A stretch of DNA of 64,000 nt from Actinomycetota bacterium. GTDB lineage: Bacteria; Actinomycetota; UBA4738; JBJMLN01. The position numbers were made by a program, and so were the translations under genes. Shown here piece after piece: positions 39,424 to 46,136 of this stretch; position 1 is the stretch's first letter, and every line of letters begins with the position of its first letter. The stretch covers positions 4,317-68,316 of the forward strand of contig JBJMLN010000009.1 of NCBI GenBank assembly GCA_045805285.1, in the 5' to 3' direction. Under the pieces are notes generated by a model that saw nothing but the letters and a program-made list of their open reading frames with translations, was not told where the DNA came from and made no database searches.

Positions 39424-42000
39424 ATGGAGCTCCGGGAGGCCCCGAGCACGGAGTCGAAGCCAGAGTCGAGCCCGGAGTCGCGGAACATCCGCCGCGCGCT
39501 CGCGCGGGCTGAGTCGGGCAAGAGCCTCTCCGTCGCGGAGGTCGCGGATCTTCTCTCCTCGCGCGGCGACGACCTCGAGCGACTGATGGCGCTGGCGTCA
39601 CGGCTCCGCGAGCTCGGTCACGGCACTCGCGTCACCTATTCCCGCAAGGTCTTCGTGCCGCTGACGATGCTCTGTCGCGATCACTGCCACTACTGCACGT
39701 TCGCCAAGCCGCCCGCGCGTCTGGACCACCCCTACCTCACTCCGGAGGAGGTCGTGACGATCGCGGAGGCCGGTCGCGCGCGCGGCTGCAAGGAGGCGCT
39801 GTTCACCCTCGGCGACCGTCCGGAGGAGCGTTATCCCGTCGCGCGGGATTGGCTCGAGGAGCGCGGATATCGCTCGACGCTGGACTACGTCCGCGCGGTC
39901 GCGATCCGTGTGATCGAGGAGACCGGACTCCTCCCGCACCTCAACCCCGGCGTCATGACGTGGGAGGAGATGGCGCGGCTCAAGAACGTCTCCGCCTCGA
40001 TGGGGCTGATGCTCGAAAGCTCCTCCGTGCGACTCACCGAGCGCGGCGGTCCGCACTTCGGATCGCCGGACAAGGAGCCGGCGCGCCGTCTCCGCACGAT
40101 CGAGGACGCCGGGCGGCTCTCGATCCCGTTCACGACGGGGATCCTCGTCGGGATCGGCGAAACGGAGGTCGAGCGTGCGGAGTCGCTGCTCGCGATCCGC
40201 GATCTCCATCGCCGGTACCGCCATGTCCAGGAGGTCATCGTGCAGAACTTCCGCGCGAAGCCCGGCACTGCGATGCGGAACGCGCCGGAGCCGGACGAGG
40301 AGGAGTTCCTCGCAGCCGTCGCGACCGCGCGGATAGTGCTCGGTCCGAAGATGAGCGTGCAGGCTCCGCCGAACCTCTCCGACGTCGAGCAGCGGCTGCG
40401 GCTTCTCGACGCCGGGATCGACGATTGGGGCGGCGTGTCTCCGGTGACGCCGGATCACGTGAACCCCGAACGGCCGTGGCCGGAGATCGGCCGGCTCACG
40501 GAGACGACCGCGTCACGCGGCCTCGAGCTCCGCGAGCGGCTCACGATCTACCCGACCTTCGCGCAGCGGCCCGATCCGTGGATCGCGGGAACGATGCGGA
40601 GCGCCGTCGCCGCCCTCTCCACCGACGACGGCCTCGCGCGCGAAGGCCTCGCCCCGGAGCCGGTCGCCTGGCAGCACCAGGAGGTTCGCTGGAAGCCCCG
40701 GACGACCGACCTCACGTTCGCGAAGGCGGCCGGTCGCGGCTTGCGCGACGACGCACTCGCCGTCTACGGAGACTTCGACGCCCTCCCGGTCACGAAAGCC
40801 TGGGCCGAACAGCAGCGCTCGCCGGAGCGCCTCGACGAGGACGTCCGGCGCGCCCTCCGCAACGCATCGGAGGGCCGTGAGATCTCCGACGACGAGGCGC
40901 TCGCCCTCTTCCGCGCGGAGGGCGACGCCCTCGAGGCGCTCTGCGGCGTCGCCGACGACGTCCGCCGCGACGTCGTGGGCGATGACGTCACCTACGTCGT
41001 CAACCGGAACATCAACTTCACGAACGTCTGTTACGTCGGCTGCCGCTTCTGCGCGTTCGCCCAGCGGGAGGTCGACGCGGAGTCGTACACGCTCACGCTT
41101 TCCGAGGTGGCCGACCGCGCCGAGGAGGCCCGCGACTGGGGCGCGACGGAGATCTGCATGCAGGGCGGCATCCATCCCGATCTCCCCGGCACGTTCTACT
41201 TCGATCTCCTCGACGCGTTGAAGTCCCGCACGCCGGAGCTCCACCTCCACGCCTTCAGCCCGATGGAGATCCTCAACGGGGCGACGCGGCTCGGCATCTC
41301 CTTCGCGGAGTTCCTCTCCGAATGCAAGCGCCGCGGTCTCGGAACGATCCCCGGCACGGCCGCGGAGATCCTCGACGACGACGTCCGCTGGCTGCTCACG
41401 AAGGGGAAGCTGCCGGCGGACACCTGGGAGGAGATCGTTCGGACCGCGCACGGGCTCGGGATCCGGTCCTCCTCGACGATCATGTACGGGCACGTCGACG
41501 CACCTCCGCACTGGGTCGCTCACATCCGCCGGATCGCCTCGATCCAGCAGGACACCGGAGGCTTCACGGAGTTCGTCCCGCTCTCGTTCATCCATCAGAA
41601 CGCGCCGATCTACCTCGCCGGAAAGGCGCGTCCCGGTCCGTCGTTCGACGACAACCGGCGGATGCACGCGGTCGCGCGGATCCTCCTTCGTGGACTGATC
41701 GACAACGTTCAGGTGTCGTGGGTGAAGCTCGGTGAGGCCGCGTGTCAGTCGATCCTTCGCGGCGGCGCGAACGACTTCGGCGGCACCCTGATGGAGGAAA
41801 CGATCAGTCGCATGGCCGGCGCGGAGTGGGGCATCCGCATGGAACCCGCGCAGTTCCGTGCAGCGATCCACGCGATCGGTAGAACGCCCGTCGAACGTAC
41901 GACGACGTACGAACGCGTCGTTCGCACGCACGAAACCGGCGTTCGCAACGCGTCGCTCACAAACGCGCACGTTGTGGAAAACCTGTCCGAGAGGTCGTAA
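39424..42000 (+). CDS. fbiC: Bifunctional FO synthase (CofG-CofH fusion)
   Basis: Two radical-SAM motifs, CRDHCHYC and CYVGCRFC; YSRKVF, GTAAEILDD, GANDFGGTLMEE. Confidence 0.95.
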   Translation: MELREAPSTESKPESSPESRNIRRALARAESGKSLSVAEVADLLSSRGDDLERLMALASRLRELGHGTRVTYSRKVFVPLTMLCRDHCHYCTFAKPPARLDHPYLTPEEVVTIAEAGRARGCKEALFTLGDRPEERYPVARDWLEERGYRSTLDYVRAVAIRVIEETGLLPHLNPGVMTWEEMARLKNVSASMGLMLESSSVRLTERGGPHFGSPDKEPARRLRTIEDAGRLSIPFTTGILVGIGETEVERAESLLAIRDLHRRYRHVQEVIVQNFRAKPGTAMRNAPEPDEEEFLAAVATARIVLGPKMSVQAPPNLSDVEQRLRLLDAGIDDWGGVSPVTPDHVNPERPWPEIGRLTETTASRGLELRERLTIYPTFAQRPDPWIAGTMRSAVAALSTDDGLAREGLAPEPVAWQHQEVRWKPRTTDLTFAKAAGRGLRDDALAVYGDFDALPVTKAWAEQQRSPERLDEDVRRALRNASEGREISDDEALALFRAEGDALEALCGVADDVRRDVVGDDVTYVVNRNINFTNVCYVGCRFCAFAQREVDAESYTLTLSEVADRAEEARDWGATEICMQGGIHPDLPGTFYFDLLDALKSRTPELHLHAFSPMEILNGATRLGISFAEFLSECKRRGLGTIPGTAAEILDDDVRWLLTKGKLPADTWEEIVRTAHGLGIRSSSTIMYGHVDAPPHWVAHIRRIASIQQDTGGFTEFVPLSFIHQNAPIYLAGKARPGPSFDDNRRMHAVARILLRGLIDNVQVSWVKLGEAACQSILRGGANDFGGTLMEETISRMAGAEWGIRMEPAQFRAAIHAIGRTPVERTTTYERVVRTHETGVRNASLTNAHVVENLSERS

Positions 42001-42011
42001 TACGTCAATGT

Positions 42012-42032
42012 GATTGACCGAGATGGTCAATC
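42012..42032. promoter_or_regulatory. Inverted repeat GATTGACC-N5-GGTCAATC, candidate operator
   Basis: Perfect 8-bp arms in the AT-richer stretch upstream of whiB. Confidence 0.45.
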
Positions 42033-42181
42033 TAGTTGATGGCGAAATTTCCTGCGCGAATCCCTTGCAACGTCGAAAGAAGCCAGGGAGCATTTGCGCG
42101 ATGGTGAAACGGACCGACCGCGTCGAGCGCGCGGACGACGAGTCGTCGGATCGCTCGACCATCGGAATGCAAGATCGGGAC

Positions 42182-42226
42182 TTGCCAACGAGGGCCCCTT
42201 TCCTTCAGAATCACACGCGTGTGATT
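42182..42226 (+). promoter_or_regulatory. Sigma-A-type whiB promoter overlapped by an 18-bp palindrome
   Basis: TTGCCA (42182) - N18 - CAGAAT (42206). AATCACACGCGTGTGATT at 42209-42226 is a perfect palindrome covering the -10 end and predicted TSS. Confidence 0.6.
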
Positions 42227-42242
42227 TGGGGGGAGGAAAAGG

Positions 42243-42470
42243 GTGCATCACTACATCCCCTGGCAGGAGCGGGCCCGCTGTCGGGAATACGACCCGGAGG
42301 TCTTCTTCCCGGAGAAGGGCGGCTCCTCTCGGGAAGCGAAGCGGATCTGTGCGGAGTGTCCCGTCCGCATCGAATGCCTCAACTACGCCCTCCGGCGCGA
42401 CGAGCGCTACGGGGTCTGGGGCGGGATGAGCGAACGGGAGAGACGACGCCTGAAGCGCATGGCGTCCTGA
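42243..42470 (+). CDS. whiB: WhiB-family Fe-S transcription regulator (WhiB/WhiB2-like)
   Basis: WQERARC...DPEVFFPEKGGSSREAKRICAECPVRIECL.YAL...YGVWGG.SERERRRL; GGAGG RBS; next to the F420 genes. Confidence 0.93.
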   Translation: MHHYIPWQERARCREYDPEVFFPEKGGSSREAKRICAECPVRIECLNYALRRDERYGVWGGMSERERRRLKRMAS

Positions 42471-42490
42471 CTCGCGAAAGGGGGTGACAG

Positions 42491-42922
42491 ATGGCCACCG
42501 CCAGAAAGTCGACCAGACGACGCAAGTCCACGGCCCGGAAGTCCACGGCGCGCAAGTCCACCGCCCGGAAGTCCACGGCACGCAAGTCGACCGCACGCAA
42601 GTCGACGGCACGCAAGTCGACGACGCGCAAGTCGGCGGCACGGAAGGCCGCCGCAACGCGGCGGAAGACGACCGCTCGCCGGAAGACCGCGGGACGGAAG
42701 GCCGCCGCAACGCGGCGGAAGTCCACCGGACGCAAGTCCACCGCACGCAAGTCGACGGGACGCAAGTCCACGGCGAGGAAGTCGACCGCACGCAAGTCGA
42801 CGAGAAGGAAGTCGCCGGCACGCAAGTCGACGGCACGCAAGTCGACGGCACGGAAGTCGACGAGAAGGAAGTCGGCTGCCAAGAAGTCGACGGCACGCAG
42901 ATCGACGGCGAAGCGTCGCTGA
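42491..42922 (+). CDS. Ultra-basic ARKST pentapeptide-repeat protein (histone H1/protamine-like)
   Basis: GGGGTG RBS and ATG 20 nt after the whiB stop; 143 aa, 62 K+R, no D/E; variation between the 15-nt units is largely synonymous in this frame; followed by a terminator hairpin. Confidence 0.8.
   Translation: MATARKSTRRRKSTARKSTARKSTARKSTARKSTARKSTARKSTTRKSAARKAAATRRKTTARRKTAGRKAAATRRKSTGRKSTARKSTGRKSTARKSTARKSTRRKSPARKSTARKSTARKSTRRKSAAKKSTARRSTAKRR
42500..42910 (+). repeat. Degenerate 15-nt coding tandem repeat (GCNMGNAAGTCSACS)
   Basis: Consecutive units such as gcacgcaagtcgacg and gcccggaagtccacg, with no spacers. Confidence 0.9.
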
Positions 42923-42946
42923 ACGCCTGGCCGTCTGCCAGACCGC

Positions 42947-42971
42947 GAGAGGGGGCCATCGGCCCCCTCTC
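42947..42971 (+). terminator. Intrinsic terminator-like hairpin
   Basis: GAGAGGGGGCC-atc-GGCCCCCTCTC, 11-bp perfect stem 24 nt after the ARKST gene; weak U-tract. Confidence 0.7.
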
Positions 42972-43049
42972 CGCTTCTCCGGGCAACGATGAGATAGGAC
43001 GCGCGGAGGTGCGTGTTACCCTGCCTCGGCGCGTACGGCGCGCCCTTCC

Positions 43050-46000
43050 ATGAAGCGCTCTCGAGCCGACCGTCCTTCCTCAACGCGTACCGTCAGCGTT
43101 CAGAGCGTCGCCGTCGTCCTGGTCGTGCGGGACGCGGCGCGTTGGCTTCGCGATTGCATCCAGGGACTGTCGTCGCAGACCCATCCGCGGCTCGGCATCG
43201 TGGCGGTCGACAACGCCTCCAGCGACGGATCGGCCGAGCTCCTTCGCCAAGCGCTCGGGGAGGAGCGCGTGATCGCCCTTCCGGACAACCGCGGCCTTCC
43301 GGGAGCGATGAAGGCGGCGCTCGAGCATCCGGCCGTCCGGGAGGCGGACTACCTCCTGCTGCTGCACGACGACACCGTCCTGTCGCCCGACGCCGTCTCC
43401 CACATGGTCGACGCCGCCGAACAGATCGAGAACGTCGGCATCGTCGGCCCGAAGGTGGTCGACTGGGATGACCCGAGGGTCCTGCGCGAGGTCGGGCGCT
43501 CCACGGACCGGTTTGGTTTCCCGTATTCGCCTCTCGAGGACGGGGAGCTCGACCAGGGCCAGTACGACCGCGTGCGGGAGGTGCTGTTCGTCTCCTCCTG
43601 CGCGATGTTGATCTCCCGCGCTGCCTGGGAGCGCACGGGGCTCCCTGACGAGCGATTGGCCGCGCATCACGACGATCTGGACCTGTGCTGGCGAGCGCGC
43701 CTCGCCGGGTTCCGCGTCGTCATGACCCCGCTCGCAACGGCGCGTCACCGCGGCTCGTCGATGCGCGGCGAGCGAGCCGACCGCCGCGCGGCGAAGCGCG
43801 GACGTTACTTCGCCGAACGAGCCGCGCTCGCGTCGATGCTCAAGAACTACGGTCTCGTGACCCTGCTCTGGGTGCTGCCCCTCTACCTGCTGCAGGGGAT
43901 CGGCAAGCTGCTGCTGTTCACCTTCGAGCGCCGGTTCGAGGACGTCTGGCAGATCCTCTCCGCGTGGGGATGGAACATCAGGCGCCTCCCCGGAACGCTC
44001 GCCCGCCGTCGCAGGACCCAGTCGGCGCGGAAGGTCCCCGACCGCGAAGTCCGGCGCTATATGGCGCCGAGCAGCGTCCGAGTGCGGCGGTGGTTCGAAG
44101 CCGCGGGGGAGCTGGTCGAGCCGATCGTCGCGGCCGACGGCGACGAACCGGCAGCGGTGCCGCTCCGCTCGAGGGCCGCGTCGCTCGCGGGTTCGCGTCC
44201 CGTCTTCGTCGGATGGACCGTCGGGATCCTCGTTGCCGTGGTGGCGATGCGGCGGCTCTTCGGAGGAACGGTCCTCGACGGAGGCGCCCTGCCGGTCTTT
44301 CCGGCGCACGCCCAGTCCTTCTATACGGAGCTCCTGTCCGCCGTCCGGACGACAGGTCTCGGCGGAACGCAGGCGGCGAGCCCCGGTCTCGGTCTCCTCG
44401 GTGGGCTCTCCTCGCTGTTGTTCGGCAGCACCTCCCTCGCACAGAAGGTCCTCCTCGGCGTGCTCCCGTTCGCGGGCGCCGTCGTCGTCTACCGCGCCGT
44501 TCTCCGACAGACGGAGCGCACGCTCGCGGGCGTCGTCGCGGCCGCGTGCTACGCGCTGACGCCGGTCATGCTCTGGTCGTTCTCGCAGGGGCGGATCCCC
44601 GTCCTGTTCGCACTCGCCGCCCTCCCGATCCTTGCCGACCGTCTCGAGTGGGCGTTCGGAGAGGACCCGCCGTACCGGGAGTGGCGCTTCGTCATCGGCA
44701 CCGGGGTCGTCCTCGCGGTCGGCGCGGCCTTCTTCCCCGGCGTCGCGCTCGCGGCCCTTCCGCTCCTCGCCGCGCAGCTGCTGTTCGCGCGTGGCAGCCG
44801 TGTCACCGGAGTCCGGCTGACGGTCCTGTTCGTTCTCGCCGGCGCTGTGCTGGTGTTCCCGATGGTCCCGACGTTCGTCACGGGAGCCGGATCCGCGTTC
44901 GCGCTGCGCGTCGGCGGCGCGGACTTCGCCTCGCTGGCTCGGCTCGTTCTCGGCCCCGCCCCGGGCGCGTGGGCGGTGTCGTGGTTCATCCCGGCGTCCG
45001 CGGTGCTCTCCGCGATGCTTGCCGCGCCGGAGCTCCGCGGCCGAGCGTTCCGGATGCTCGTCGCCGCCGGGGCCAGTACCGTGCTCGCCTGGTGCGCGGC
45101 CGCGGGATGGCTGCCGGCCGGGTTCGCGAACCCCGTCGCCTACACGGCGGCGGCGGCCGTCGCCGAGGTCCTGCTGATCGGCTACGGCGTCGCGTCGCTC
45201 CTCTCCTGGATCGGGCGACAGTCGTTCGGTCTGCGCCAGGTCGCCGGGCTCGTGCTCGGAACGCTCCTCGCCGGAGGTCTGGTGCTCCAGTCGGCGACGG
45301 CGATGATCGGCAGCTGGGCGATCGGCCCCGGGAAGCTCCCGCCGGCCTGGCCGTCGATCGCATCCAAGGGCGGCGGCGACTTCCGGGTCCTGTGGATCGG
45401 ACGTTCCTCGGGATCTGCTTTCCCGGCGCCGGGCGGCGATCCCGAGGGCCTTGTCCCGGCGGGAGACGCGTCGCTGCGGTACGGGGTCACCGACCGACAG
45501 GGGAGAACGGCGCTCGACGTCGGCCGGGCGGGAGTCGGTCCCGGCTACGACCGCGTCGAGCACATCCTTGACCTCGCCCTCTCCGGCACGACGAGCCACG
45601 CGGGTGCGCTCCTCGGCCCCTTCGGCATCCGGTACGTGATCGCGGGCGACGGAGACCTCCCCGAAGGGGCGGTGACGGCCCTCGGTCACCAGCTCGATCT
45701 CAATCTGGTGCCATTCGGCGGCCTGCAGATCTATCGGAACGCCGCGCAGCTTCCGCCCGCGGCGGTCATCTCCTCCGACGCGTATCGGAACGCCGCTGTG
45801 CGGGCCGACCCGAGCGTGCTGGCGGCGCAACCGCCGCCCCCGGCGACCGCCCTCCAAGAGGTCACGGGCGGCTGGATCGGCACCGGGCGCGACGGCGGAG
45901 TCGTGTCGATCGGAGACCAGTTCGCGGACGGCTGGCGCCTACGCTCGAATGCGGACGAGGTTGCTCCGAGAGAGCTGTACGGCTGGGCCGTCGGGTTCCC

Positions 46001-46136
46001 GATGCCGCCCGGCGCATTCTCCGTGTTCTACAGCCTGCAATGGATCCGGACCGCGGAGATGATCCTCCTCGGTGTCCTGTGGCTCGCGGCGCTGTGGATG
46101 ACTCGAAGGCGTTCTGACGCGGCGGGCGCGCGATGA
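43050..46136 (+). CDS. GT2 glycosyltransferase fused to large multi-TM domain
   Basis: AVDNASSDGS, LLLHDD, VGPKVVDW, DLDLCWRAR, then more than 10 TM helices. The gene usually found after whiB in actinobacteria. Start approximate. Confidence 0.87.
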   Translation: MKRSRADRPSSTRTVSVQSVAVVLVVRDAARWLRDCIQGLSSQTHPRLGIVAVDNASSDGSAELLRQALGEERVIALPDNRGLPGAMKAALEHPAVREADYLLLLHDDTVLSPDAVSHMVDAAEQIENVGIVGPKVVDWDDPRVLREVGRSTDRFGFPYSPLEDGELDQGQYDRVREVLFVSSCAMLISRAAWERTGLPDERLAAHHDDLDLCWRARLAGFRVVMTPLATARHRGSSMRGERADRRAAKRGRYFAERAALASMLKNYGLVTLLWVLPLYLLQGIGKLLLFTFERRFEDVWQILSAWGWNIRRLPGTLARRRRTQSARKVPDREVRRYMAPSSVRVRRWFEAAGELVEPIVAADGDEPAAVPLRSRAASLAGSRPVFVGWTVGILVAVVAMRRLFGGTVLDGGALPVFPAHAQSFYTELLSAVRTTGLGGTQAASPGLGLLGGLSSLLFGSTSLAQKVLLGVLPFAGAVVVYRAVLRQTERTLAGVVAAACYALTPVMLWSFSQGRIPVLFALAALPILADRLEWAFGEDPPYREWRFVIGTGVVLAVGAAFFPGVALAALPLLAAQLLFARGSRVTGVRLTVLFVLAGAVLVFPMVPTFVTGAGSAFALRVGGADFASLARLVLGPAPGAWAVSWFIPASAVLSAMLAAPELRGRAFRMLVAAGASTVLAWCAAAGWLPAGFANPVAYTAAAAVAEVLLIGYGVASLLSWIGRQSFGLRQVAGLVLGTLLAGGLVLQSATAMIGSWAIGPGKLPPAWPSIASKGGGDFRVLWIGRSSGSAFPAPGGDPEGLVPAGDASLRYGVTDRQGRTALDVGRAGVGPGYDRVEHILDLALSGTTSHAGALLGPFGIRYVIAGDGDLPEGAVTALGHQLDLNLVPFGGLQIYRNAAQLPPAAVISSDAYRNAAVRADPSVLAAQPPPPATALQEVTGGWIGTGRDGGVVSIGDQFADGWRLRSNADEVAPRELYGWAVGFPMPPGAFSVFYSLQWIRTAEMILLGVLWLAALWMTRRRSDAAGAR

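What the first reader, a model, noticed from the sequence alone, without database searches (positions are those of the whole stretch)
42243..42971. whiB operon encodes a protein made of tandem histone-H3-K9-like ARKST motifs: candidate modifiable nucleoid-condensing system
Seen: 143 aa using only M/A/T/R/K/S/G/P, with 62 K+R, no acidic residues and no folded domain. It has 13 exact ARKST copies plus GRKST/RRKST/RKSA/RKSP variants, and one TARKSTG. Codons vary synonymously (gcc/gcg/gca, cgc/cgg/aga/agg, tcc/tcg), so the peptide rather than the DNA repeat appears conserved. It has its own RBS 20 nt after whiB and a strong hairpin after it, which suggests a bicistron. Knowledge: TARKSTG equals histone H3 residues 6-12 (the K9/S10/T11 modification hotspot); known bacterial H1-like repeats (AlgP KPAA, HupB PAKK, chlamydial Hc2) are K/A/P-rich without a regular Ser-Thr pair; WhiB/WhiB2 governs septation and sporulation. 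Inference: a protamine-like DNA compactor co-expressed with WhiB, whose charge could be switched by Ser/Thr phosphorylation or Lys acylation/methylation. The H3 match may be convergent given the low complexity.
Basis: partly seen in the sequence, partly recalled or inferred. Interest (0 to 1): 0.85.

Follow-up and report, generated by a model that had tools for sequence, protein, structure and literature searches.

The report
WhiB-linked histone H1-like repeat protein
A real gene for a very basic, mostly unfolded repeat protein sits directly behind the cell-division regulator gene whiB in many uncultured soil actinobacteria; it looks like a bacterial histone H1-like nucleic-acid-coating protein, and its match to histone H3 is a by-product of the repeat.

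Summary
Window 42491..42922 (+) encodes 143 aa made only of M/A/T/R/K/S/G/P, with 62 K+R, 13 ARKST and one TARKSTG. It starts 20 nt after a 75-aa WhiB and is followed by a strong hairpin.

It is a real gene. An acid-free basic ORF follows the whiB orthologue on the same strand in 30 of 30 loci of the order. It is intact in 67 of 83 unique loci, with a conserved Shine-Dalgarno site (61 of 67) and hairpin (64 of 67). Soil metatranscriptome contigs bridge whiB into it.

The H3-like motif is not conserved: ARKST occurs in 15 of 67 orthologues and TARKSTG in 1 of 67. The general grammar A-[KR][KR]-[S/T/P] holds in 66 of 67.

The protein passes Pfam HC2 (55.1 bits, cut-off 40). Its nearest database relatives are tails on HU, SWIB and ribosomal proteins.

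Best reading: a free-standing Hc2/H1-like polycationic nucleic-acid binder co-transcribed with a WhiB/WhiB2-type regulator. What is new is the conserved whiB linkage, also seen in four other actinobacterial families. No SET gene was found.

The parts
42182..42211 (+). Weak sigma-70-like promoter match (TTGCCA-18-CAGAAT) in the 242-nt intergenic region upstream of whiB. Tentative only.
   Evidence: 9 of 12 matches, against a mean of 0.1 in shuffles. An RNA-library contig of a relative (X3 record 17) spans 42115-42622, so it begins upstream of this match and does not support it as the transcript start.
42243..42470 (+). whiB: a 75-aa WhiB-like regulator of the WhiB/WhiB2 type, with a GTG start.
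   Evidence: Pfam Whib E 1.2e-28. Best PDB match 8dy9_H/8dy7_H 'Transcriptional regulator WhiB', 111.9 bits, against WhiB1 69.3, WhiB4 56.8, WhiB3 45.4 and WhiB7 41.7. Best match 91-99% identical in 38 of the 40 other genomes of the order.
42471..42490 (+). 20-nt spacer with a Shine-Dalgarno site (AAAGGGGGTGA) for the second cistron. It has no room for a terminator.
   Evidence: An SD-like motif lies upstream of the start in 61 of 67 orthologues; the median gap is 23 nt.
42491..42922 (+). Basic repeat protein gene: 143 aa, 43% K+R, no acidic or hydrophobic-core residues, H1/Hc2-like.
   Evidence: (PF07382 HC2, 55.1 bits, cut-off 40).
42520..42909 (+). 15-nt tandem repeat array (27 copies, consensus ACGCAAGTCGACGGC) that encodes the pentamers. 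It is interrupted at 42635-42744 by a 54-nt unit (2 copies) that overlaps most of the predicted central helix (residues 44-79).
   Evidence: for the helix.
42945..42974 (+). GC-rich terminator-like hairpin (13-bp stem with one bulge, 3-nt loop) 22 nt after the stop codon. No long T-run follows it.
   Evidence: -37.7 kcal/mol, z -3.88. In 64 of 67 orthologous loci the 70 nt after the stop fold at -30 kcal/mol or lower, against 45 of 134 control windows. The consensus scan missed it because there is no T-run.

Best explanation
The locus is a two-gene operon: whiB (WhiB/WhiB2 type), then a free-standing histone H1-like / Hc2-like polycationic protein, then a terminator hairpin.

The second product is mostly disordered. 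It carries two basic residues in every five, about +62 net charge, and a short central helix. I infer that it coats the phosphate backbone of DNA, and possibly RNA, without sequence specificity, neutralises charge, and so compacts or bridges the nucleoid. This is what chlamydial Hc2, Bordetella BpH1 and the lysine-rich tails of actinobacterial HU do. Because it is translated from the whiB mRNA, its supply is tied to the regulator that controls septation in other actinobacteria.

Shown here: the gene is real, it is conserved in position, strand and frame, it is present in RNA libraries, it meets the Pfam HC2 threshold, and the same repeat type is fused to DNA- and RNA-binding domains elsewhere.

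Inferred: nucleic-acid binding, compaction, and any link to division or dormancy.
For: (1) Conservation of position. An acid-free basic ORF starts 7-102 nt after the whiB stop on the same strand in 30 of 30 loci of the order. Of 83 unique loci whose WhiB is at least 88% identical, 67 are intact and strongly basic, and 2 more carry longer AKPAA-type versions. Seven begin in the basic frame and then shift frame, 1 is N-masked, 2 run off their contig and 3 have under 120 nt of flank. One locus lacks the gene.

(2) Coding signals. GC is 0.445, 0.698 and 0.876 at codon positions 1, 2 and 3, and an SD-like motif is present in 61 of 67. The termini are conserved (M-A/S-x-A-K/R-K ... A-K/R-K/R-R). Variation among the RKSTA units is silent.

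(3) RNA. Contigs from four soil metatranscriptome studies bridge whiB into the ORF: X15 record 3 (42365-42528, 0 differences), X20 record 9 (42212-42546, 12), X5 record 28 (42386-42561, 7) and X3 record 17 (42115-42622, 38).

(4) Kind. PF07382 HC2 scores 55.1 bits against a cut-off of 40. The pentamer design of two basic plus three small residues is how PMC2848022 describes Hc2 and the Hc2-like proteins of Bordetella and Burkholderia (passages).

(5) Fusion evidence. Of 72 database hits, 37 carry an HU domain, 4 carry SWIB, and others carry L21, L22 or an HTH domain, each with AKKST/ARKST-type tails. The PDB match is to the basic N-terminal region of sigma HrdB/SigA.

(6) HU tails. HU in this order has only an 8-37-aa tail (12 copies in 11 genomes). 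In lineages without the whiB-adjacent gene, 8 of 10 genomes with HU have a copy with a 51-158-aa basic tail.

(7) Conserved hairpin after the gene.
Against: No binding assay exists, and low-complexity matches such as Pfam HC2 largely reflect composition. The curated NCBIfam models for Hc2 (41.1 bits, cut-off 135) and the Burkholderia H1-like protein (36.3, cut-off 80) are not met.

The same tails sit on ribosomal proteins, and Hc2 itself binds RNA strongly (PMC2848022), so the target could be RNA or ribosomes.

The HU-tail complementarity is not strict. Families f18 and f40 have both the pair and 41-85-aa HU tails, G142 and G157 have neither, and the whole order counts as roughly one evolutionary event.

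RNA-library contigs can contain DNA and do not prove a single transcript (tool caveat).

The exact protein and 7 orthologues were not found in the 15-billion-protein collection, so there is no independent gene call or proteomic record.
Confidence: 0.65

Rival explanations
1. One reading: the ARKST units imitate the histone H3 K9/S10/T11 hotspot, and the protein is a nucleoid compactor switched by Ser/Thr phosphorylation or Lys methylation/acylation.
For: A hydroxyl residue follows the basic run in 905 of 1313 cases across 67 orthologues, and [RK][RK][ST] occurs in 66 of 67. The genome has three strong Hanks-type kinase matches. One exact TARKSTG is present.
Against: ARKST is in 15 of 67 orthologues, TARKSTG in 1 of 67 and Ser is absent from 7 of 67. 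Some orthologues are KKKAAAKKKPAA or AKRKPARRK with almost no S/T. TARKSTG arises mechanically where an ARKST unit precedes a GRKST unit. No SET domain was found. ARKST tails are common on unrelated proteins. The organism comes from soil MAGs, so there is no evident eukaryotic host to mimic (titles).
Confidence: 0.1
2. It is mainly an RNA- or ribosome-associated polycation (a translation damper or RNA chaperone) rather than a nucleoid protein.
For: The same tail type is fused to L21, L22 and, in this genome, an L13-like ribosomal protein (identified by eye, not scanned). Hc2 is reported to bind RNA with higher affinity than Hc1 and to repress translation (PMC2848022, Background passage).
Against: HU fusions dominate the hits (37 of 72), and SWIB, HTH and sigma-factor regions also carry such tails. 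HU in this order lacks the long tail.
Confidence: 0.15
3. It is a dedicated partner of WhiB. In lineages without WhiA it supplies the DNA contact that WhiA gives to WhiB-sigma in Streptomyces.
For: WhiA was not found in 0 of 41 genomes of the order (PF02650). With TIGR00647 it was not found in 0 of 11 genomes of the order, 0 of 10 of family f9 and 0 of 10 of f16, all of which have the whiB-basic pair. The phylum as a whole has it in 91 of 151, and the controls are positive. The gene pair is conserved in at least five lineages.
Against: Families f18 (WhiA in 9 of 10) and f40 have both WhiA and the pair. f11 and f32 have neither WhiA nor the pair. No interaction was tested. A non-specific polycation cannot replace a sequence-specific WhiA. 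Related genomes are not independent observations.
Confidence: 0.07
4. It is not a gene: a non-coding 15-nt DNA repeat, or the real gene lies in another frame or on the other strand.
For: Other frames are also stop-free across the span: 33-62 of 67 loci, depending on the frame, and 189-, 234- and 319-aa ORFs overlap it in the window. The protein is not in the public protein collection.
Against: Start, SD, stop and hairpin are conserved in register with this frame. Only this frame keeps one composition (K/R/A/T/S/P, no acidic residues) while the repeat unit and DNA drift. GC3 is 0.876. The minus-strand ORFs overlap whiB itself. RNA-library contigs cover it.
Confidence: 0.03

Closest known systems
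Chlamydial Hc2 (hctB) and Hc2-like/BpH1 proteins of Bordetella, Burkholderia and Herminiimonas (Pfam PF07382)
   Same: Consecutive pentamers with two basic and three small residues, and evenly spaced positive charge. Length varies through repeat number: 37-154 aa here, 165-237 aa in Hc2. The protein stands alone. The Pfam HC2 threshold is met.
   Different: Ser/Thr-rich rather than Ala/Val/Pro-rich in this genus. It lacks the non-repeat C-terminal domain and conserved flanks of Hc2, and the NCBIfam Hc2 model scores 41.1 bits against a cut-off of 135. It is actinobacterial and sits in an operon with whiB.
Lysine-rich C-terminal tails of actinobacterial HU (HupB/Hlp of mycobacteria, HupS of Streptomyces)
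   Same: Same composition and short motifs (KKST, KKTT, AKKA/PAKK), seen here in Mycobacterium-like and Streptomyces-like HU tails. HupB's tail is described as indispensable and eukaryote-like in PMC5676037 (title and abstract seen in the listing).
   Different: There is no HU fold (no PF00216 hit). It is a separate gene, and HU in this order has only an 8-37-aa tail.
Streptomyces DdbA (H1-like domain fused to a DksA-like domain) and AlgP of Pseudomonas (KPAA repeats)
   Same: Bacterial H1-like low-complexity basic modules tied to development or stress (DdbA: PMC3643593 abstract) or to polyphosphate granule spacing (AlgP: PMC9239181 abstract).
   Different: It has no fused folded domain. The window's protein has a single Pro, so it is not a KPAA repeat.
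Histone H3 N-terminal tail (residues 6-12)
   Same: One exact TARKSTG and 13 ARKST. The identity to H3 is recalled, not tested.
   Different: The motif is not conserved in orthologues (1 of 67 and 15 of 67). There is no histone fold, no SET enzyme was found, and the motif is a by-product of the repeat.

Membership tests
Pfam HC2 (PF07382), histone H1-like nucleoprotein | Score above Pfam's gathering cut-off | tested here: met
   55.1 bits against a cut-off of 40, aligned over residues 1-141. Caveat: this is a low-complexity family, so the score largely reflects composition and periodicity.
Hc2-like pentamer-repeat proteins (as described in PMC2848022) | Consecutive pentamers with two positively charged and three small residues, giving evenly spaced charge | tested here: met
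   26 in-register 15-nt units, 11 of them RKSTA. The basic residues have a period of 5 in 33 of 67 orthologues, 6 in 18 and 11 in 13. The definition is taken from passages read.
Chlamydial Hc2 proper (NCBIfam NF038052) | Curated whole-protein cut-off, which includes the non-repeat C-terminal part | tested here: not met
   41.1 bits against a cut-off of 135.
Burkholderia-type H1-like DNA-binding protein (NCBIfam NF038053) | Curated equivalog cut-off | tested here: not met
   36.3 bits against a cut-off of 80.
Hc2/H1-like nucleoid proteins | Binds and condenses DNA | not testable with these tools
   Indirect evidence only: the same repeat type is fused to HU in 37 of 72 hits.
HU/IHF family (PF00216) | HU fold domain | tested here: not met
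   No PF00216 match in the protein. The genome's one HU gene found is elsewhere, at C8:1164-1430.
Histone H3 tail mimic | The ARKS(T) motif is kept by orthologues | tested here: not met
   ARKST in 15 of 67, ARKS in 23 of 67 and TARKSTG in 1 of 67.
Histone H3 tail mimic | A cognate SET-type writer encoded in the genome | tested here: not met
   PF00856 gave 0 matches in the 93.65%-complete genome, and the control genome rang. An incomplete genome does not prove absence.
WhiB/WhiB2 class (for the neighbouring gene) | Wbl domain and closest similarity to Streptomyces WhiB rather than to WhiB1/3/4/7 | tested here: met
   Pfam Whib E 1.2e-28. PDB WhiB (8dy9_H) 111.9 bits against WhiB1 69.3. There is one match per genome at E <= 1e-25 in Streptomyces-like and Mycobacterium-like genomes. 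Four Cys (C13, C36, C39, C45) and GVWGG are visible in the sequence; that these are the defining Wbl motifs is recalled.
AlgP-type KPAA repeat proteins | KPAA repeat unit | tested here: not met
   The window's protein has one Pro. Two orthologues (L017, L021) do carry AKPAA-type repeats.

The most novel reading that the evidence does not exclude
The WhiB2-type regulator of several deep-branching, largely uncultured actinobacterial lineages has an obligate operon partner: a polycationic disordered protein. In three of these lineages no WhiA was found. The partner either tethers WhiB-sigma complexes to DNA or couples nucleoid compaction stoichiometrically to WhiB-driven septation. Its regularly spaced Ser/Thr after each basic pair would serve as a charge switch for Hanks kinases.
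Probability: 0.1. Interest if true: 0.75.

Novelty: new variant of a known kind. Interest (0 to 1): 0.45.

Why it matters
Stand-alone H1-like repeat proteins are known from Chlamydia and beta-proteobacteria. In actinobacteria the equivalent sequence is known mainly as a tail on HU and other proteins.

Here the module is a separate gene locked to whiB. The pairing was seen in every assessable locus but one of an abundant soil order, and in four further families. The exact protein was not found in a 15-billion-protein collection, so annotation pipelines may miss it.

If its synthesis really is coupled to WhiB, this is a simple, testable link between the division regulator and chromosome compaction in bacteria that cannot yet be grown. 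It also warns that short matches to histone tails inside low-complexity repeats are not evidence of mimicry.

Tried and rejected
- **Literature search for 'ARKST'** with match 'anywhere' returned only place and surname matches and was useless. Searches found no paper linking whiB or whiB2 to a downstream H1-like gene. This covers only the held open-access library, and supplements were not seen.
- **Frame-openness test** does not discriminate. I chose the basic frame by definition, and the other frames are stop-free in 33-62 of 67 loci.
- **Exact look-up of alternative ORFs**. None of the three alternative-frame ORFs nor 7 orthologues are in the collection, so I cannot say which frame, if any, annotators call.
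- **RNA coverage of the flanks.** In X3, X15 and X20 the bins at 41851-42105 and 42973-43300 have no depth.
- **Consensus terminator scan** missed the hairpin, which has no T-run. Its single hit, inside whiB, is within chance expectation.
- **Rfam** found nothing meaningful in 41800-43200 (one hit at E 0.85).
- **'Basic protein replaces the HU tail'** is only partly borne out.
- **'Basic protein replaces WhiA'** has no clean complementarity.
- **Complex prediction** of WhiB with the basic protein was not run, because I do not claim that they bind.
- **Earlier-findings look-ups** by place and by words gave nothing.
- **Class or order name.** I did not determine it. Record titles say only Actinomycetota or Actinomycetes, with one Acidimicrobiales.
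Full report
**What is in the sequence.** The window has 69.5% G+C. At 42243..42470 (+) lies a 75-aa WhiB-like gene (Pfam Whib, E 1.2e-28). Twenty nucleotides after its TGA, behind AAAGGGGGTGA, an ATG opens the ORF 42491..42922.

Its 143 residues are R 35, A 28, K 27, T 26, S 22, G 3, M 1 and P 1. That gives 62 K+R, no acidic residue, 13 ARKST, 17 RKST and one TARKSTG. Tandem Repeats Finder sees a 15-nt array of 27 copies at 42520-42909, with a 54-nt unit (2 copies) in its middle.

The 11 units that encode RKSTA differ at third codon positions and at one CGG/AGG first position. A hairpin at 42945-42974 folds at -37.7 kcal/mol, with z -3.88. AlphaFold2 without an alignment gives no globular fold (pTM 0.29). 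The ARKST arrays are predicted as coil and only residues 44-79 as one helix.

**Surroundings.** Upstream, at 39424..42000, is an 858-aa protein with two radical-SAM stretches and a CofH C-terminal region. I read this as an FbiC-type F420 synthesis enzyme; the name is my inference from the Pfam hits. Downstream, at 43050..46136, is a 1028-aa family-2 glycosyltransferase.

**Is it a gene?** The window is G000:C9. The whiB orthologue (best match 91-99% identical) was found in 38 of the 40 other genomes of the same order. In 30 of 30 loci fetched, the own locus among them, an acid-free ORF with 26-56% K+R starts 7-102 nt after the whiB stop on the same strand.

Adding 80 named public loci gave 119 unique loci with a complete whiB, of which 83 have a WhiB at least 88% identical. 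These 83 break down as follows:
- 67 hold an intact, strongly basic ORF.
- 2 (L017, L021) hold longer AKPAA-type versions with 26-27% K+R.
- 7 (L069, L072, L073, L075, L081, L085, L087) begin in the basic frame and then change frame. Six of these seven are from one series of MAGs, so assembly indels are a likely cause, though I cannot show this.
- 1 (L052) is N-masked.
- 2 (L088, L106) run off their contig.
- 3 have under 120 nt of flank.
- 1 (L110, a 56% G+C contig labelled Saccharibacteria) has no such ORF.

For the 67 intact genes, length is 37-154 aa (median 117) and the median gap is 23 nt. Mean composition is K 0.276, A 0.256, R 0.183, T 0.141, S 0.070 and P 0.040, with no D, H, Y, W or C. 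GC at codon positions 1, 2 and 3 is 0.445, 0.698 and 0.876, and 61 of 67 have an SD-like motif. In 64 of 67 the 70 nt after the stop fold at -30 kcal/mol or lower, against 45 of 134 control windows.

The other five frames are often stop-free too (33-62 of 67), so openness alone proves nothing. What argues for this frame is the conserved start, SD, stop and hairpin, together with a constant composition while the repeat unit drifts.

Three of the 67 (L015, L026, L031) come from genomes flagged as unpublished. No conclusion rests on them alone.

**RNA.** Nine RNA runs hold part of the stretch. In four soil metatranscriptome runs from four studies, contigs bridge the whiB end and the start of the basic ORF:
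- X15 record 3: 42365-42528, 0 differences.
- X20 record 9: 42212-42546, 12 differences.
- X5 record 28: 42386-42561, 7 differences.
- X3 record 17: 42115-42622, 38 differences, so from a relative.

These are assembled contigs from RNA libraries. They show presence in such libraries and continuity across the junction. They do not show strand, level or a single transcript, and DNA carry-over cannot be excluded.

**What is conserved and what is not.** ARKST occurs in 15 of 67 orthologues, RKST in 24, [RK]KST in 36 and TARKSTG in 1 (the window only). Seven have no Ser, and one has neither Ser nor Thr. The commonest shared 7-mer is TAARKPA, in 31 of 67. The period of the basic residues is 5 in 33, 6 in 18 and 11 in 13.

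A looser grammar is kept. Basic runs are preceded by Ala in 1141 of 1375 cases. They are followed by Thr 497, Ser 408, Pro 242 and Ala 108 times out of 1313. [RK][RK][ST] occurs in 66 of 67.

So the family is selected for spaced charge with small residues, often hydroxylated ones, and not for the H3 heptapeptide. In the window, TARKSTG arises simply where an ARKST unit precedes a GRKST unit.

**What kind of protein.** Pfam HC2 is met at 55.1 bits against a cut-off of 40. The curated NCBIfam models for Hc2 (41.1 against 135) and the Burkholderia H1-like protein (36.3 against 80) are not met.

[quoted passage not shown] Its size varies with repeat number, and similar proteins occur in Bordetella (BpH1), Burkholderia, Herminiimonas and Ralstonia. 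That is the design seen here.

A search of 5.8 billion proteins gave 72 hits. Of these, 37 carry an HU domain. Others carry SWIB (4), L21, L22, an HTH domain or DUF3175, or are named phasin. Their sequences show AKKST/ARKST arrays as tails. The only PDB similarity is to the basic N-terminal region of sigma HrdB/SigA (E 1.3e-4).

The own genome holds a second HC2-type array on a 299-aa protein (C144:38-934, 49.1 bits). It also has basic S/T-rich tails on an L13-like protein and on two small proteins with a PKRGR(K/R)PG motif.

ARKST-type arrays are thus a common form of basic tail in high-G+C bacteria, mostly attached to nucleic-acid-binding domains.

**HU.** The genome's HU gene found (C8:1164-1430) has a 15-aa tail. 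In 11 genomes of the order, 12 HU copies have tails of 8-37 aa. Among 10 genomes that have HU but no whiB-adjacent gene, 8 have a copy with a 51-158-aa basic tail. These include Mycobacterium-like and Streptomyces-like genomes, whose tails contain KKST and KKTT. Two (G142, G157) have no long tail. Six genomes of f18 and f40 have both the pair and 41-85-aa tails.

The idea that the free-standing protein stands in for the HU tail is therefore suggestive for this order but is not a rule.

**The neighbour.** The WhiB's best solved relative is Streptomyces 'Transcriptional regulator WhiB' (8dy9_H/8dy7_H, 111.9 bits), well ahead of WhiB1 (69.3), WhiB4, WhiB3 and WhiB7. In a sample of 151 genomes of the phylum, 76 have one such match at E <= 1e-25. 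That this class governs septation and sporulation is established knowledge, recalled and not tested here.

**Range.** Outside the order I examined 56 loci, of which 53 were assessable. Thirteen have a basic ORF after whiB:
- Family f18: 6 of 7.
- Family f40: 1 of 1.
- Family f9: 3 of 3, with ARKST/GRKKST repeats starting about 117-188 nt after whiB.
- Family f16: 3 of 3 assessable, with AKRKPARRK repeats about 140-240 nt after whiB.

None was seen in f14, f15, f27, f41, f17, f11, f32, f38, f42, f44, f48, f50 or f51. None was seen in the 17 lower-identity loci (L114-L130) either, among them records titled Brevibacterium, Gordonia, Nocardioidaceae, Streptosporangiaceae, Nanopelagicales, Egibacteraceae and Cumulibacter.

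**WhiA.** PF02650 found nothing in 41 of 41 genomes of the order, 27 of which are at least 90% complete. TIGR00647 found WhiA in 91 of 151 genomes of the phylum. By group: 0 of 11 in the order, 0 of 10 in f9, 0 of 10 in f16, 9 of 10 in f18, and present in f40, f14, f15, f27 and f41. The control genomes were positive.

Three pair-bearing lineages thus lack a detectable WhiA, and two have it. Some of these tallies include unpublished genomes (G006, G014, G027, G030, G031 and G039; G041, G057, G085 and G152 in f9; G117 in f16).

**Modification enzymes.** No SET domain was found. Three strong Hanks-kinase matches exist. Neither result says anything specific about this protein.

**Verdict.** The locus is a real, conserved whiB-basic-protein operon ending in a hairpin. 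The protein is best read as a free-standing Hc2/H1-like polycationic nucleic-acid binder. The H3 resemblance is coincidental. The new element is the conserved coupling to a WhiB/WhiB2-type regulator across several mostly uncultured actinobacterial lineages.

It is an unchecked lead, not independent evidence.

Noticed in passing
whole genome G000 and 40 relatives of the order; phylum sample: WhiA was not found in any of 41 genomes of the order (PF02650). With TIGR00647 it was not found in the order (0 of 11), f9 (0 of 10) or f16 (0 of 10). These lineages nevertheless keep a WhiB/WhiB2-type gene; within the order it is 91-99% identical in 38 of the 40 other genomes. The phylum has WhiA in 91 of 151.
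   Followed up: partly
G000:C144:38-934 (-), locus L182: Second HC2-type protein in the same genome: 299 aa, with an acidic N-terminal part, an Ala/Gly-rich stretch, then about 190 aa of RKST/RKAT/RKTT repeats. PF07382 scores 49.1 bits.
   Followed up: partly
G000:C135:16071-16427 (-) (L183:72-428) and G000:C114:4505-4801 (+) (L184:106-402): Two small paralogous proteins with a CDxCG...INGRN..KDLC core, a PKRGR(K/R)PG motif that resembles an AT-hook (by eye) and a basic Ser/Thr-rich tail. No Pfam match.
   Followed up: partly
G000:C8:1164-1430 (-), locus L131: The genome's HU gene found has only a 15-aa basic tail. HU tails are 8-37 aa across the order, but 51-158 aa in most sampled actinobacteria that lack the whiB-adjacent gene.
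   Followed up: yes
loci L069, L072, L073, L075, L081, L085, L087: The basic gene begins normally and then changes reading frame. Six of the seven are from one series of MAGs, so these are probably indel errors in the repeat rather than pseudogenes.
   Followed up: partly
locus L110: A 56% G+C contig labelled Candidatus Saccharibacteria carries a WhiB 89% identical to the window's but has no basic gene after it. This may be a mis-binned or mobile sequence.
   Followed up: no
window 42491-42922 and 7 orthologues: None of these exact proteins, nor three alternative-frame ORFs, is in the 15-billion-protein collection, whereas the neighbouring WhiB is (a cluster of 552 members). Gene callers may skip this gene.
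   Followed up: partly
window 42620-42727 (residues 44-79): The central non-ARKST segment, with two KAAATRRK motifs, is the only part predicted as a helix (pLDDT up to 93). KAAATR[KR] recurs, usually twice, in 9 of 67 orthologues.
   Followed up: partly
window 39424-42000 and 43050-46136: whiB is flanked by an FbiC-like F420 synthesis gene (two radical-SAM stretches plus CofH_C) and by a 1028-aa family-2 glycosyltransferase.
   Followed up: no
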